Shown: positions 3,006 to 58,557 of the stretch, one piece after another
How positions within the stretch are numbered: the stretch's first letter is position 1
How the letters are laid out: every line of letters begins with the position of its first letter
Position numbers and translations under genes: made by a program
Notes under the pieces: generated by a model
What the model was told of the DNA's origin: nothing
The model's database searches: none
Seen by the model: the letters and a program-made list of their open reading frames with translations, nothing else
Assembly: GCA_951406725.2 (NCBI GenBank)
Contig: OX597840.1
Coordinates: 28,706,001-28,770,000, forward strand
Origin: Octopus vulgaris
Taxonomy: Eukaryota
Direction of reading: 5' to 3'
DNA length: 64,000 nucleotides

Positions 3006-3056
3006 AGCTTCCTGAAGATTTCTCTTGAATGAAACAGTACTAGTCCTGTAGAAGCT
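3006..3056 (+). ncRNA. Minimal type-I hammerhead ribozyme motif in a Penelope-like terminal segment (~2880-3142)
   Basis: agcttc-CTGAAGA-tttctcttgaat-GAAA-cagtactagtcctg-TA-gaagct: 6-bp stem I, intact core, near-palindromic stem III; first stem II pair is U-U. Confidence 0.75.
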
Positions 3057-3175
3057 CCTTCTATATAATAAATTAATTTTACTCTGCTATGTATTGAGTA
3101 CCTTACTTACTGTGGTTAACCCCGAATCAACCCGGGACCTACATATATATATATATATATATATATATATATATT

Positions 3176-3410
3176 TGTGTGTGTGTGTGTGTATGTTTGT
3201 GTGTTGTGTTTGCCTTCCTCCCCCAACATCGCTTGACAACCGATGCTGGTGTGTTTACGTCCCCGTAGCTTAGCGGTTCGGCAAAAGAGACTGATAGAAT
3301 AAGTACTACGCTTACAAAGAATAAGTCCTGGGGTCGATTTCCTCGACTAAAAGCAGTGCTCCAGCATGGCCGCAGTCAAATAACTGAAACAAGTAAAAGA
3401 GTAGAGTAAG
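3176..3410 (+). mobile_element. SINE family A, 3' half
   Basis: catcgcttgacaaccgatgctggtgtgtttacgtcccc...ctgaaacaagtaaaagag, recurring more than 12 times in the window. Confidence 0.85.
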
Positions 3411-4206
3411 AGTATAGAAATGAAAAGTGTTGCTGAAGAGGTCACAGATGTGTGATGAAAGATTTCCGGACAATGAACAGGTGTCAAAATAAAATAACGG
3501 TAATAAACGAATGAAGAAAAAAAATATAGTGTATGTGTGATCATCTTTTTAACCTGATCATTATTTTTTTGGGGGGAGGTGGGGTCCATGTAGCTCTGGT
3601 CCACCCGTTCCATCTCTCTTTGAGCCCAGAACCGGTGTGGTTGGGAAGCAAACTGCTTACCACACTACTGTACTTGCACCTATACAGTACTTTGATATTT
3701 ATTTTTACTCATGTTACATAGTTTTTTAAACTCCTTTTAATCCCATTCTTGAAACCAGTTTAACCCTGAATATAACTTCCTGACAAATAAACTCTTTTCA
3801 CGTATCATTTCAGATACCTTTGATGGAGCACACCTTCTGAATTCTTCAACGCCTTAGATGACCATGTGAGGGACCCCGTTATCTGCGATATTAAATTATT
3901 CTTCACCTGTCCAACTGATTGGATAGGATAAAAAGAAAAGAAACAAGTTGTTAATTGTCTACAACACTCGGAGACAAGACAGAGGCCATCTGGCTTATAT
4001 TGGATATCTTTTGCTGTGTGATTCCTATTTTTTATTTGTGTTTTTGTGTCTCTGTGCATACACCCACCCCCCACATATATATATATATATATATATATAT
4101 ATATATATACTGGAGTAAACACATAAATGTGAAACAAGGTGGAAAAAGAGTACTCAAATACCAGTGGTAGAGTAATATGCTTTATTTAAAGCAGCAGAAA
4201 ATTCAA

Positions 4207-4256
4207 CAAAACCTGTTACTCTGAGTTTCACGTTCCCGTTCGTCGGGCAGTTTTTG
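4207..4256 (-). ncRNA. Degenerate hammerhead motif in a Penelope-like fragment (~4108-4258) inside (TA)n
   Basis: Minus strand aaaactgc-CCGACGA-acgggaacgt-GAAA-ctcagag-TA-acaggtttt; core U4 changed to C. Confidence 0.6.
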
Positions 4257-4423
4257 CTATATATATATATATATATATATATATATATATACATACATAC
4301 ATCCATACATATTCATTGATATACATACATACTTACATATATTTATATTTATTCATATATATATATATTTATATTTATTCATATAGATATATATATATAT
4401 ATGTTTGTCAAAAAGCCCTAGTG

Positions 4424-5507
4424 ATGGCTCAATTAAACAACATGTTGGCTCTCGTTAATGTGTTCTATGAAGCTATTAGTAATAACGATGCCGAGAGGGT
4501 TGAAGCCATTCTGAAATACTGTCGCGAGAACCACTGCTGTTACTATCTGGATCTAGATAAGGCGGTCTGTGTAGCGGCTCGCAATGGTGCTACGACTGTT
4601 GTGGAGATGATAATTCTCGGATCACGGCCCTTGCCTTCCCTAATCCATACAGACGAGACGGGTAAGAAAGCCATTCACCATGCTGTGTTAAATGGCAGTT
4701 TGGAACTGGTGAAAATTTTGACCAGGAATGGCTCTGTTCTCAATCGATGCGACTCCGAAGGACAGACCCCTTTATTGCTAGCATGCAACTGTGGGTTCAC
4801 AGACATTGTTCGTTTCCTGATTAGCGAGGGGTCGCATGTAAACCTTTCTCGTAACCACAATGACGAGAGAGCCCTCCACATCGCAGCCGGTGCTGGTCAC
4901 ATTGAGGTGGTCAGGGTTCTGTTGGAAGAGAGCCGAGCAAATATAGAAATTCAAACTCTGTTACTTCAAGGAGGGATGACCCCCTTGCATAAAGCTGTAA
5001 GGAATGGACACCTCGATGTCGTTAGGTACCTGTGCGAAAAAGGTGCTAATGTCGAGGCACGCGATGTTGATAACAAAAGACCGATTCACATGGCCATAGA
5101 CACTGATGCTCCGCAGATTCTCCAGGTTCTCATTGACAACAATGTCGACGTCAATGCTACAGATAAATTCGGTTCATCGCCGCTGCATTATGCCATTCAA
5201 ATAAAGAGTTTGGAAATGGTAAAAATGCTTTTGGAAACGGAGAGGGTAAGCTTAAACCAGCCTAACAGAAGAGGAGATTATCCCTTACATCTAGCCGTCG
5301 CTCGCAGATCTGAAGCCATCACCTTAGAATTGGTAAAAGCTGGTTGCAATATTCATGTGGTATCACCGAACCATGAAACACCATTGCTGCAGGCAGCATC
5401 TATCGGTAGCTACGTGATTGTTGACATTTTGCTGCGACAGGGTGCAAATGTTAATGCGCAGAGCAATGATCGGCTGACGGCATTGCACAAGATACAGTAT
5501 GCACGGT
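4424..5507 (+). CDS. Ankyrin repeat and SOCS box (ASB-like) protein, coding exon 1 (about 9-10 ankyrin repeats)
   Basis: MAQLNN... with repeated TPLH/ALH-x-A...G...LL..GA motifs; donor GCACGGT|gtaagt at 5508, phase 1. The ATG at 4424 is inferred; the ORF-track N-terminus is (TA)n. Confidence 0.92.
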
Positions 5508-55697: not shown

Positions 55698-55770
55698 ATA
55701 TATATATATATATATTTCTCTCCTTGTATATATATGTATATATTTTTCTCTCCTTGTTTTTTTCTGTGTA

Positions 55771-55808
55771 TCTTTCTGTCGAAGAGCGTAGGCTCGAAAC
55801 GTAAAAGA
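55771..55808 (+). ncRNA. Minimal hammerhead variant in a Penelope-like fragment (about 55740-55897); truncated sister at about 57356-57468
   Basis: tcttt-CTGTCGA-a-gagc-gtag-gctc-GAAA-cg-TA-aaaga; A6 changed to U, stem III reduced to CG. Confidence 0.6.
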
Positions 55809-55987
55809 CTTTTTCAATTCCTGAGCGTTATACTAATACATCTGTTTGTTTTCTACACCACCTGTCTTTGTCTTTTTTTTTCTGTAAACTCTCCCTATAT
55901 ATATTATATATATATATATATATATATATATATATATATATATATATATATATATATATATATATATATATATATATATATATATAT

Positions 55988-56292
55988 ACTTTGATACTTT
56001 GATACTTTGATAGGTTTCGGCCATTATTGGCCCAGGCCATGTCTAACTTAATAGCACCACCTGGTGAAGTCTTTCAAGTCAGAATTTGGGCACTATGGCC
56101 CACTCAAGTAGAGAGTTATTGTTTACAGAGACATATCCGGGTGTAGGGGGTTTATCCGGGATTTCTTGAAGGAATCTGTCCAAAGACTTCTTGAACCCTA
56201 TAGGGTCAGTTTCTTTTTTAATGTGTTTTGGTGTAATGTTAAAGAGAGCGGGGCCAATTGAGGTGAAATAATTGTGCCGTATTGTTGTTATG
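55988..56292 (-). mobile_element. CR1/L2-group LINE 3' fragment with (tcaaagta)n tail
   Basis: NYFTSIGPALFNITPKHIK....IGFKKSLDRFLQEIPDKP.TPGY...NSLLEW. Confidence 0.8.
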
Positions 56293-56964
56293 CGATATAT
56301 ATATATATATATATATATATATATATATATATCTATATATATATATATATACATTAATGTTTATTTTTATGTTACAATCAAAAAATAATTTTACCGTAAA
56401 CTAGAGGATTACTCAATACTTTTTGGTACTATACAAAATTACTATTCTTTAACAAGAATAATATTGTCAATGAGTTCGAAGTTTCCGCCAGTCAAGTCAT
56501 TATCGGACAGTATATGTGTGTGTGCACCCTTAGAATCTAAAGGGCTCATTCCCTAAAGTTTGAGAATTTTTTATTCACTCCTAGAAGAATGCATTATTTC
56601 AGCCTGGGTGTGTTTGTAGACAGTTGAAAATAATATTTTAACAAAAAAAAAAAAAAGTAAGAAGAATTAAATGATAGCATTGTAGTTGCGGGTGGGCCTC
56701 CTTAGTCTCCTGGTCAACCAATATTTTTAGACTTAGTCCACCACTGTATATATGTGTGTATATTGAAAAGGTTGCAAGAGGCAACGAAAATTTTAGGAAA
56801 ATAAAAATAAGAATTAAGTGGAAATTTTACGGTGAGTGTGTTAAATTATAAGCCACAAAAAGAAAATGACTCTCACCAGACACAACAGAATATGCTTCAA
56901 TACACGAACTCATAAAGAGAATCTTGCAAAATAAATCCAAAAACGAAATATATATATATATATA

Positions 56965-58557
56965 TATGGAGTTGCAGTGAGATGATAACATTAATACAGC
57001 TGCCATATACAAGCGATGCTGCATACATACATTCACAAATGCATAGATACATGCATGCATATATATTCACACACAAACATGCACATAAGTAACTTTTAAA
57101 ATGCTGAGGAAGGGAAAGTAAAGTGGGTGTGAGGAATATGTGGCTTGTCGCTTCGAATGTTTGTTATATATGTATGTATGTATGTATGTATGTATGTATG
57201 TATGTATGTATGTATGTATGTATGTATGTATGTATGTATGTATGTATATATGTATGTATGTATGTATGTATGTATACATGTATGTATGTATGTATGTATG
57301 ATTGTATGTATGTGTATGTGTGTCTGTGTGTGAGTGTTTCTTTGCGATGGATAGCAGAAAACGTAAAAGACTTGTTCTATTTCTATTCCTGAGTGCCATA
57401 CTAATACATTTGTTTGTTTGTACTCCACCTGCCTTCGTCTTTTGTTTATTTTCGTAAACCTTCCCGTTATATATATATATATATATATATATATATATAT
57501 ATATATATATATATATATATGGCTGAGACTTAACATCGTTCCAAAATGTCTTTAAATGTCGCATCATATCCATTTCGGCAACAACTTTTAACGATCAAGT
57601 GTCGAAGTGCATCCCTTGACCAAGTTTGCATACATGAAGCTGATAACATAAGACTTGGAAGGCAGCTCCTTGAGTAATATTCTTTGTTTTATAACCTGTG
57701 CCCGAAGAAGTTGAAAGGATGAGTCTCTATGAAGTATTAAAGTTTCAGCCCCAAATCACTACAATCGTGGATTAAAGGCTCCCTCAGTTAATTCATCTGA
57801 AGATTAACCAATTATTTAACAAGGCTGATAGTTGTGACTCCAAAGCTGGAGATAGTATTCATCGTATTTTCGATAAATAGTCTCCCACGCCAAATATACG
57901 GCTTGTCGCTTCGAACGTTTATGTATGTATGTATGTATGTATGTATGTATGTATGTATGTATGTATGTATGTATGTATGTATGTATGTATGTACGTATGT
58001 ATGTATGTATGTATGTGTATATGTGTGTGTGTGTGTATGTGTGTACGTATGTATGTATGTATGTATGTATGTATGTATGTATGTATGTATGTATGTATGT
58101 ATGTATGTATGTATGTACGTACGTATGTATGTATGTACGTATGTATGTATGTATGTATGTACGTATGTATGTGTTTATGTGTGTCAACGTATGTATTTAT
58201 GTATGTATGTGTCAACATGTATCTTTGTATGTATGTATGTATGTATTTATGTATGATATGTATGTATGTATGTATGTACGTATGTATGTGTGTGTGTGTG
58301 TGTGTGTGTGTGTGTGTGAGTGTGAGTGTTTCTTTGCGATGGATAGCAGAAAAGCCACCTACTCACTCTCTTTTTGAAGCTACGTATTCCTCACACCCAC
58401 TTTGCTTTCCCTTCCTCAGCATTTTAAAAGTTACTTATGTGCATGTGTGTGTGTGAGTATGTGCATGCATGTATCTATGTATTTGCGAATGTATGTATGC
58501 AGCATCGCTTGTATATGGCAGCTGTGTTAACGTTACCATCTTACTGCCACTCCATAT
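56965..58557. mobile_element. Composite element with ~180-bp inverted ends and an internal direct duplication
   Basis: About 56965-57146 is inverted at 58377-58557; ggcttgtcgcttcgaa-(TATG)n-gagtgtttctttgcgatggatagcagaaa occurs near 57141 and 57900. Confidence 0.75.

What the first reader, a model, noticed from the sequence alone, without database searches (positions are those of the whole stretch)
3006..57468. Several distinct minimal hammerhead ribozyme families in short elements beside (TA)n microsatellites
Seen: CTGAnGA-stem II-GAAA-stem III-TA closed by stem I at 3006(+), 6642(-) and 12049(-) with intact cores. Mutated or truncated versions lie at 4207(-), 6222(+), 25235(-), 50469(-) and 55771(+). 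Stem III is short and self-complementary (cagctg, caattg, ctc(t/a)gag, cg, cagtactagtcctg). Established: Penelope-like retroelements carry minimal type-I hammerheads of this form, thought to act as dimers. Inference: about five or six non-coding, ribozyme-bearing families in 64 kb with no RT or GIY-YIG ORF nearby, i.e. a large non-autonomous, retrozyme-like population favouring TA tracts.
Basis: partly seen in the sequence, partly recalled or inferred. Interest (0 to 1): 0.8.

Follow-up and report, generated by a model that had tools for sequence, protein, structure and literature searches.

The report
Hammerhead-bearing Penelope retroelement ends
The window holds short repeats from about seven families that carry hammerhead-ribozyme-shaped motifs and end at (TA)n tracts; they are most likely the cut-off ends of Penelope-like retrotransposons, a known kind, with one 494-base family that may move without a protein of its own.

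Summary
Observation confirmed and extended. All eight cited motifs are present. Three have full cores, against 0.2 per shuffle (0 of 40 shuffles reached 3). A missed family carries a U3-A8 covariant core (56763, 25604). Public contigs laid on 6150-7330 show multicopy families: summed depth is about 100-fold (6222 ribozyme), 660-6,000-fold (6642 element) and over 50,000-fold (7214 tail) that of a single-copy contig. Loose ends at 7314 continue into an intact minimal hammerhead. [quoted passage not shown] They are not retrozymes by the published definition, since no tandem array exists. No PLE ORF was found or linked, so autonomy is open. The best non-autonomous candidate is the 6642 family: a 494-nt ORF-less unit plus 52-nt terminal repeat, sharply bounded, and skipped by one contig from a second organism label. 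No Rfam hammerhead model hit, and cleavage is untested. PLE hammerheads and their abundance as single truncated copies are published; PLEs are 6.83% of the Octopus vulgaris genome, and the host is likely an octopus (untested). New member of a known kind.

The parts
3006..3056 (+). Family A type-I hammerhead, full core, near-palindromic 14-nt helix III, U.U at stem II closing pair; tail runs to (TA)n at 3143
4110..4257 (-). Family B stub between two TA tracts; core CCGACGA (U4C) at 4246-4240, helix III CTCAGAG
6160..6215 (-). Inverted partial copy of family B starting at the GAAA half-core (6208)
6222..6378 (+). Family B copy; core CTCATGA (G5C) at 6232-6238; ribozyme part about 100-fold single-copy depth, tail single-copy at 80% likeness
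6401..6948 (-). Family C element: 494-nt ORF-less unit plus 52-nt terminal direct repeat (6403-6454 / 6897-6948, 50 of 52 identical); high depth throughout, sharp drop at 6950; skipped by one contig of run X4
6642..6705 (-). Family C type-I hammerhead, full core, 6-bp stem I, helix III TCAC/GTGA; only core change among the rows shown is at N7 (6695)
7214..7314 (-). Family D2 tail from just before the cleavage triplet to (TA)n; over 50,000-fold summed depth; loose ends continue into an intact minimal hammerhead
12049..12128 (-). Family F hammerhead, full core, 6-bp stem II with 38-nt loop, helix III CAGCTG, 3-bp stem I; family status untested
25128..25268 (-). Family D2 copy; core decayed to CCAACAA (two CG>CA changes from CCGACGA, inferred), stem I GTTT/AAAC
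25338..25464 (-). Family E partial copy, inverted partner of 25601-25786
25601..25786 (+). Family E copy with U3-A8 core TTGAAAA at 25604, 5-bp stem II, 2-bp stem I; ends at (TA)n
25803..26180 (.). Head-to-head inverted pair of family C tails, junction at about 26039-26051, close behind the cleavage site
47549..47731 (.). Inverted pair of family E tails, junction at 47613
50253..50514 (-). Family G copy; decayed core ATGACGG at 50513, helix III CAATTG, 220-nt tail to (TA)n; family status untested
55771..55895 (+). Family D1 copy; minimal hammerhead with A6U core CTGTCGA at 55776, stem I TCTTT/AAAGA, ends at (TA)n
56760..56947 (+). Family E copy with U3-A8 core at 56763, G10.1-C11.1 stem II, ends at (TA)n
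57357..57467 (+). Family D1 tail starting at the GAAA half-core, ends at (TA)n

Best explanation
These are short repeats from about seven families, each with a type-I hammerhead motif 90-250 bases from a 3' end that abuts (TA)n, and they are most likely the 5'-truncated pseudo-LTR ends of Penelope-like retroelements. Inferred mechanism, from published PLE biochemistry: a PLE protein nicks AT-rich or (TA)n DNA with its GIY-YIG endonuclease, starts reverse transcription inside the RNA a short way 3' of the ribozyme, and usually stops early. That leaves a stub of ribozyme plus tail, often with an inverted second stub. The short palindromic helix III would let two ribozymes cleave as a dimer in a tandem master transcript. 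The lone genomic stubs are likely dead passengers that decay by point and CpG mutation. Family C (494-nt unit) may be a non-autonomous mini-element moved by the same protein; for the others autonomy is open.
For: Shown: motifs exceed shuffles. Families B, C and D2 are multicopy in two DNA runs (ratios). Loose ends behind 7314 read through an intact core CTGACGA (X1, 42 contigs; X12, 11) or CCGACGA (X14, 2), with an unpaired A, a G-C-closed stem II and a CG palindrome, matching the PLE minimal consensus in the supplement of PMC4209133. The fourth stem I pair is C-G in D1 and G-C in D2, a double change. Helix III segments of A, B, C and F pair with themselves at -9.4 to -17.2 kcal/mol but fold alone at 0 to -2.4. 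3' ends abut (TA)n in 11 of 12. Four inverted pairs lie in the window, and 6 of 15 listed joints are opposite-strand joints inside family C. Literature: inverted 5'-truncated partners, tails and (TA)n bias are PLE traits (PMC8557442); internal RT start and AT-rich nicking (PMC11167929); most minimal hammerheads occur singly (PMC4209133); PLEs cover 6.83% of O. vulgaris in 190 families (PMC13282606 supplement), against a hand sum of about 3.0 kb (4.7%) for the parts listed here.
Against: No PLE ORF was found or linked: Pfam gave no RT or GIY-YIG in 66 peptides or in 12 read-through frames upstream of four ribozymes; phmmer with one upstream frame of family C gave only repeat-protein artefacts; three octopus Naiad consensus 3' ends did not resemble these families by eye. 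No Rfam hammerhead hit. Family C depth does not fall towards its 5' side and stops sharply at 6950, which random truncation of a long element does not predict. TA adjacency is not unique: one SINE family has it at 7 of 12 ends, and LINE-like 3' fragments also abut TA. Host identity is untested. Summed contig depth is not a copy number.
Confidence: 0.7

Rival explanations
1. Most families are dedicated non-autonomous, SINE-like PLE passengers with short master units, copied from a tandem or circular RNA released by the hammerhead.
For: Family C: 494-nt unit with its 3'-terminal 52 nt repeated at its 5' side, no Pfam match in three upstream frames, depth 660-6,000-fold across the unit with a sharp edge at 6950, and one X4 contig joining 6404 to 6949 as an empty site would. 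No loose end behind about 6890 among 24 rows shown. Many stubs begin at or near the ribozyme. D2 tail depth is over 50,000-fold.
Against: The junction at 6890-6897 holds an ATATA that could be a target remnant between two insertions; 811 loose-end rows were hidden; the empty site rests on one contig; a 494-nt unit could be a long pLTR. D2 loose ends differ upstream of the ribozyme between runs. No circular-junction joint was listed in the two RNA-guess runs, though contigs cannot show absence. Starts near the ribozyme are biased by how the copies were found.
Confidence: 0.22
2. The elements are SINE-like repeats mobilised by a non-PLE LINE (for example Dong/R4 or RTE) that carry hammerheads independently, as Schistosoma Sm-alpha SINEs do.
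For: Dong-R4, RTE and CR1 families are recently active in O. vulgaris (PMC13282606); LINE-like 3' fragments beside TA tracts lie in the window. Hammerhead SINEs exist in schistosomes (PMC6765202).
Against: Inverted overlapping partners and minimal palindromic hammerheads are PLE traits. Self-BLAST shows no shared 3' end with the window's LINE fragments. ARAGORN found no tRNA gene in the window (weak test for a decayed tRNA head).
Confidence: 0.05
3. The motifs are chance look-alikes in AT-rich repeats.
For: No Rfam match; MFE folds often differ from the hammerhead fold; F and G are single copies in the window with weak stem I.
Against: 0 of 40 and 0 of 100 shuffles reached the observed counts; the D2 family reads an intact core in contigs from other runs; shared orientation relative to (TA)n. 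It could still hold for F or G alone.
Confidence: 0.03

Closest known systems
Minimal hammerheads in pLTRs of metazoan Penelope-like elements (Cervera and de la Pena 2014, PMC4209133)
   Same: Type-I topology, palindromic helix III, unpaired base before a G-C-closed stem II (families D, E), U3-A8 variant, thousands of dispersed single copies in many families
   Different: No octopus entry in the supplement files searched (one file not searchable); A, B, C, F have longer helix III and no unpaired base; U4C and A6U cores seen here; no ORF link shown
Animal non-LTR retrozymes (PMC7229834; bioRxiv 10.64898/2026.07.22.740005)
   Same: Non-coding, AT-rich, type-I hammerhead, PLE pLTR ancestry proposed; dispersed monomers known; family C unit size is within the reported 51-972 bp
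   Different: No tandem array of two or more hammerhead units here; no circular RNA shown
Poseidon PAc of Anolis (PMC11167929)
   Same: 3' end of insertions roughly 100 nt past the ribozyme; AT-rich targets; partial-tandem ends
   Different: In PAc the ORF starts at stem II; no such ORF start was seen here; strict (TA)n targeting is closer to Neptune, Hydra or Naiad clades
Non-autonomous PLEs such as MRC1 of Chlamydomonas (PMC8557442)
   Same: Short ORF-less elements with pLTR-type partial tandems, as family C may be
   Different: Most Chlamys elements lack canonical hammerheads; the autonomous partner of family C is unknown
Octopus Naiad elements (PMC8557442 supplement)
   Same: (TA)n insertion preference in octopus
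   Different: Lack canonical hammerheads; their 3' ends did not resemble the window's families by eye and no tested motif matched them

Membership tests
Type-I hammerhead ribozyme | CUGANGA and GAAA boxes, NUH triplet, three helices closed by stem I | tested here: met
   Three window copies with full core; D2 family from loose ends; E with U3-A8 but only 2-bp stem I. No Rfam match
Type-I hammerhead ribozyme | Self-cleavage at the NUH site | not testable with these tools
   Needs transcription assays; all served runs were contigs
Type-I hammerhead ribozyme | Core conservation and stem covariation within families | tested here: inconclusive
   Family C: only N7 varies among rows shown, 90 rows hidden; one double change in stem I between D1 and D2
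Penelope-like element (EN+) | ORF with RT and GIY-YIG endonuclease joined to the repeat | tested here: inconclusive
   None in the window; no genome held, so full-length copies could not be sought
Penelope-like element (EN+) | Hammerhead with palindromic helix III near the 3' end (pLTR) | tested here: met
   92-253 nt from cleavage site to (TA)n in 11 of 12; helix III self-duplexes
Penelope-like element (EN+) | Inverted 5'-truncated partners and partial-tandem ends | tested here: met
   Four inverted pairs and one 52-nt terminal repeat; six opposite-strand joints in family C
Penelope-like element (EN+) | Insertion bias for AT-rich DNA or microsatellites | tested here: met
   11 of 12 against 27.9% background; control repeats mostly low, one SINE 7 of 12
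Non-LTR retrozyme | Tandem array of two or more units each with a hammerhead | tested here: not met
   No TRF array overlaps a hammerhead; family C has 1.1 units and one ribozyme. Tested in this window only
Non-LTR retrozyme | Abundant monomer-length linear and circular RNAs | not testable with these tools
   Family C is covered by contigs of two RNA-guess runs, which cannot show ends, level or circles
Non-autonomous PLE (family C) | Short master unit with fixed 5' end or head-to-tail junction shared by many copies, no ORF | tested here: inconclusive
   High depth over the unit, sharp edge, one empty-site contig; number of contigs spanning 6896/6897 not shown
Naiad clade | Sequence match to octopus Naiad 3' ends; no canonical hammerhead | tested here: not met
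   (motif search and reading by eye)

The most novel reading that the evidence does not exclude
This genome carries dispersed, single-unit hammerhead retroelements that behave like SINEs of Penelope: family C is copied from a 494-nt ribozyme-cut circular or tandem RNA into more-than-unit inserts at (TA)n and is still polymorphic between close relatives, and family D2 is among the most abundant ribozyme-bearing repeats of any animal, with U4C, A6U and U3-A8 cores fixed in whole subfamilies.
Probability: 0.2. Interest if true: 0.55.

Novelty: new member of a known kind. Interest (0 to 1): 0.3.

Why it matters
As PLE ends, these add a cephalopod-type genome to a pattern published in 2014 and give a quick handle for classifying short 'unknown' or 'SINE' repeats as PLE-derived. 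If family C is a true mini-element with an empty allele in a relative, it offers a young, small substrate for the open question of whether PLE hammerheads cut and circularise the template in vivo; PMC11167929 found cleavage dispensable in vitro. Family-wide U4C, A6U or U3-A8 cores would show how much catalysis PLEs need.

Tried and rejected
Whole genome: none held. Rfam: no hammerhead family. Earlier scan notes: four look-ups, nothing. Pattern scans for family D: 0 in viral contigs, 0 in metagenome contigs; 27 loci in prokaryote genomes against about 35 expected by chance, none BLAST-similar to the elements, rejected as chance. A recalled resemblance of one family C upstream frame to a PLE endonuclease C-terminus was tested by phmmer: 28 hits, 25 TPR proteins and 3 other repeat-type sequences, none PLE, rejected. 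Pfam on 12 read-through upstream frames: 4 weak matches in 3 frames, E 0.025-0.18, unrelated. Octopus Naiad link: rejected. Weak descriptor hits at 63365, 47177, 32458, 43998, 34853 and 28082 are within shuffle range and are not counted. Lunse et al. 2017 on PLE hammerhead variants is not held, so U4C or A6U cores may already be described there. Literature searches for octopus or cephalopod plus hammerhead or ribozyme found no description of these families; subscription journals, Repbase, Dfam and the Zenodo library of PMC13282606 were not searchable, and one supplement file of PMC4209133 and the preprint's supplements were not seen.
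Full report
Setting. The window is animal DNA, 24-48% GC per 2 kb, dense in microsatellites and SINE-like repeats, with exons of an ankyrin plus SOCS-box gene at 4424-5509, 22355-22543 and 26602-26856. The repeat landscape resembles an octopus genome; that is recalled and untested, run labels are coded, and no genome was held.

Observation. All eight cited motifs are present. Full cores lie at 3012(+), 6699(-) and 12122(-): 3 hits against 0.225 per shuffle, 0 of 40 shuffles reaching 3. 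A second descriptor gave 6 hits at score >=7 against 0.91, 0 of 100 shuffles. Both were designed after seeing the motifs. Weak points: 3006 has U.U closing stem II; 12049 has three contiguous stem I pairs; 6642 and 12049 do not fold as hammerheads at MFE; no Rfam hammerhead model matched (150 of 167 rows seen). The U3-A8 variant is published for schistosome PLEs (PMC4209133, parts 1-2 of 4 read).

Families. Self-BLAST and alignments give seven families: A (3006), B (4207, 6222), C (6642), D (D1 55771, 57357; D2 25235, 7214), E, F (12049), G (50469). In element sense, 11 of 12 loci reach (TA)>=4 within 270 nt of the cleavage site, against 27.9% of random positions (threshold set afterwards, two loci share a tract). 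In six control repeat sets TA lay within 30 nt of an end in 2/13, 0/6, 0/7, 7/12, 1/8, 0/3, 1/11, 0/8, 0/2, 0/2, 0/2 and 0/3 cases, so the bias is strong but not unique. Four inverted pairs occur: 6160-6215/6222, 25338-25464/25601, 25803-26180 and 47549-47731. No tandem array holds a hammerhead.

Outside data. I laid four of 24 listed runs on 6150-7330 at 80% likeness: X1 and X4 (DNA guess, two organism labels), X12 and X14 (RNA guess); all are contigs. Single-copy contigs have depth 42.5 and 46.5. Summed depth, which the tool says is not a copy number, is 90-112-fold that over the B ribozyme, 660-6,000-fold over C (6430-6949) and 53,000-82,000-fold over the D2 tail. C drops to 275-650 at 6950. 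One X4 contig joins 6404 to 6949, removing both terminal repeats; recombination between them would leave one, so this reads as an empty site (one contig, letters between not known). Six of 15 listed joints are opposite-strand joints inside C at single-copy depth. The only C core position among the 40 rows shown is N7; 90 rows were hidden. Loose ends behind 7314 continue into a minimal hammerhead: core CTGACGA in X1 (42 contigs) and X12 (11), CCGACGA in X14 (2), unclear in X4 (22); median loose lengths are 11-43 nt, so the core letters rest on fewer contigs. This matches the PLE consensus in the PMC4209133 supplement. The decayed 25235 core fits two CpG changes from CCGACGA (inference). U4C lowers activity in vitro yet supports viroid infection (PMC3088659, passages).

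ORF link. Not found. Pfam gave no RT or GIY-YIG in 66 peptides or in 12 upstream frames read with X at stops. Phmmer of one C frame returned repeat-protein artefacts. Octopus Naiad ends do not match (PMC8557442: passages; supplement searches; part 24 of 59 read). Membership in PLEs therefore rests on anatomy, not on the protein.

Mechanism. Shown: motifs, families, TA-abutting 3' ends, inverted partners, helix III segments that pair better with a second copy than alone. Inferred from PMC11167929 (parts 1-2 of 4): endonuclease nick in AT-rich DNA, reverse transcription started inside the RNA downstream of the ribozyme, early stop. That paper found the ribozyme protein-assisted and dispensable for insertion in vitro. 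PMC4209133 found no monomer cleavage and low dimer cleavage, and the 2026 preprint (parts 1-3 of 5) found 1 of 9 dimers active. The lone copies here are therefore likely inactive.

Comparison. It works like a PLE pLTR. It fails the tandem test for retrozymes (PMC7229834, passages; preprint). PLEs cover 6.83% of O. vulgaris in 190 families, 31 with recent insertions (PMC13282606, parts 1-2 of 3 and supplement search); the parts listed here sum by hand to about 3.0 kb, 4.7% of the window. Penelope is listed as abundant in coleoids (PMC8967140, passages), and 235 Hammerhead_1 hits were reported in giant squid (PMC6962438, passages). Three searches found no paper describing these families; Lunse et al. 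2017 was not available (title seen in the reference list of PMC6765202, passages).

Verdict. Real, well above chance, and richer than first read, but an expected feature of a PLE-rich genome. What remains open and worth a look is family C as a young 494-nt mini-element, the extreme abundance of D2, and the variant cores. New member of a known kind; interest 0.3.

Noticed in passing
window 4424-5509, 22355-22543, 26602-26856 (+): Exons of an ankyrin-repeat gene with a C-terminal SOCS-box match (ASB-like). The two full canonical-core hammerheads inside its span (6642, 12049) are antisense; the sense ones have an altered core or weak stem I. Numbers are too small to call selection.
   Followed up: partly
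window 7671-8760 (+): Broken RTE-like LINE 3' fragment (recalled motif) ending in C2H2 zinc fingers.
   Followed up: no
window 26185-26550 (+), 56010-56290 (-), 55540-55697 (+): Short LINE-like 3' fragments (CR1- and RTE-like by recall; no Pfam match) next to TA tracts.
   Followed up: partly
window 29122-29951 (+): Broken hAT transposase with a dimerisation-domain match.
   Followed up: no
window 3060-3142, 4110-4200, 6270-6378: Tails of families A and B share an AT-rich stretch followed by TTGAGTAC about 45 nt before the 3' end; a possible conserved protein-binding or RT-start signal.
   Followed up: no
window 6990-7176: A separate repeat of moderate depth (up to about 5,800) with an opposite-strand joint 7007/7085; not identified.
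   Followed up: no
window 11638-11984 and 13869-14215: Two 347-nt copies at 92% with a 43-nt hairpin near one end; Helitron- or MITE-like; the first interrupts the tail of family F.
   Followed up: no
window 32947-34619 and 51228-51756: Homogeneous minisatellites: 44 nt x 38 and 17 nt x 31.
   Followed up: no
L008:217-237 (-): A 1.8-kb contig of a Dysgonomonas assembly has a full CTGAAGA core with a short stem II and GAAACGTA; possibly an unrelated small hammerhead or contaminant.
   Followed up: no
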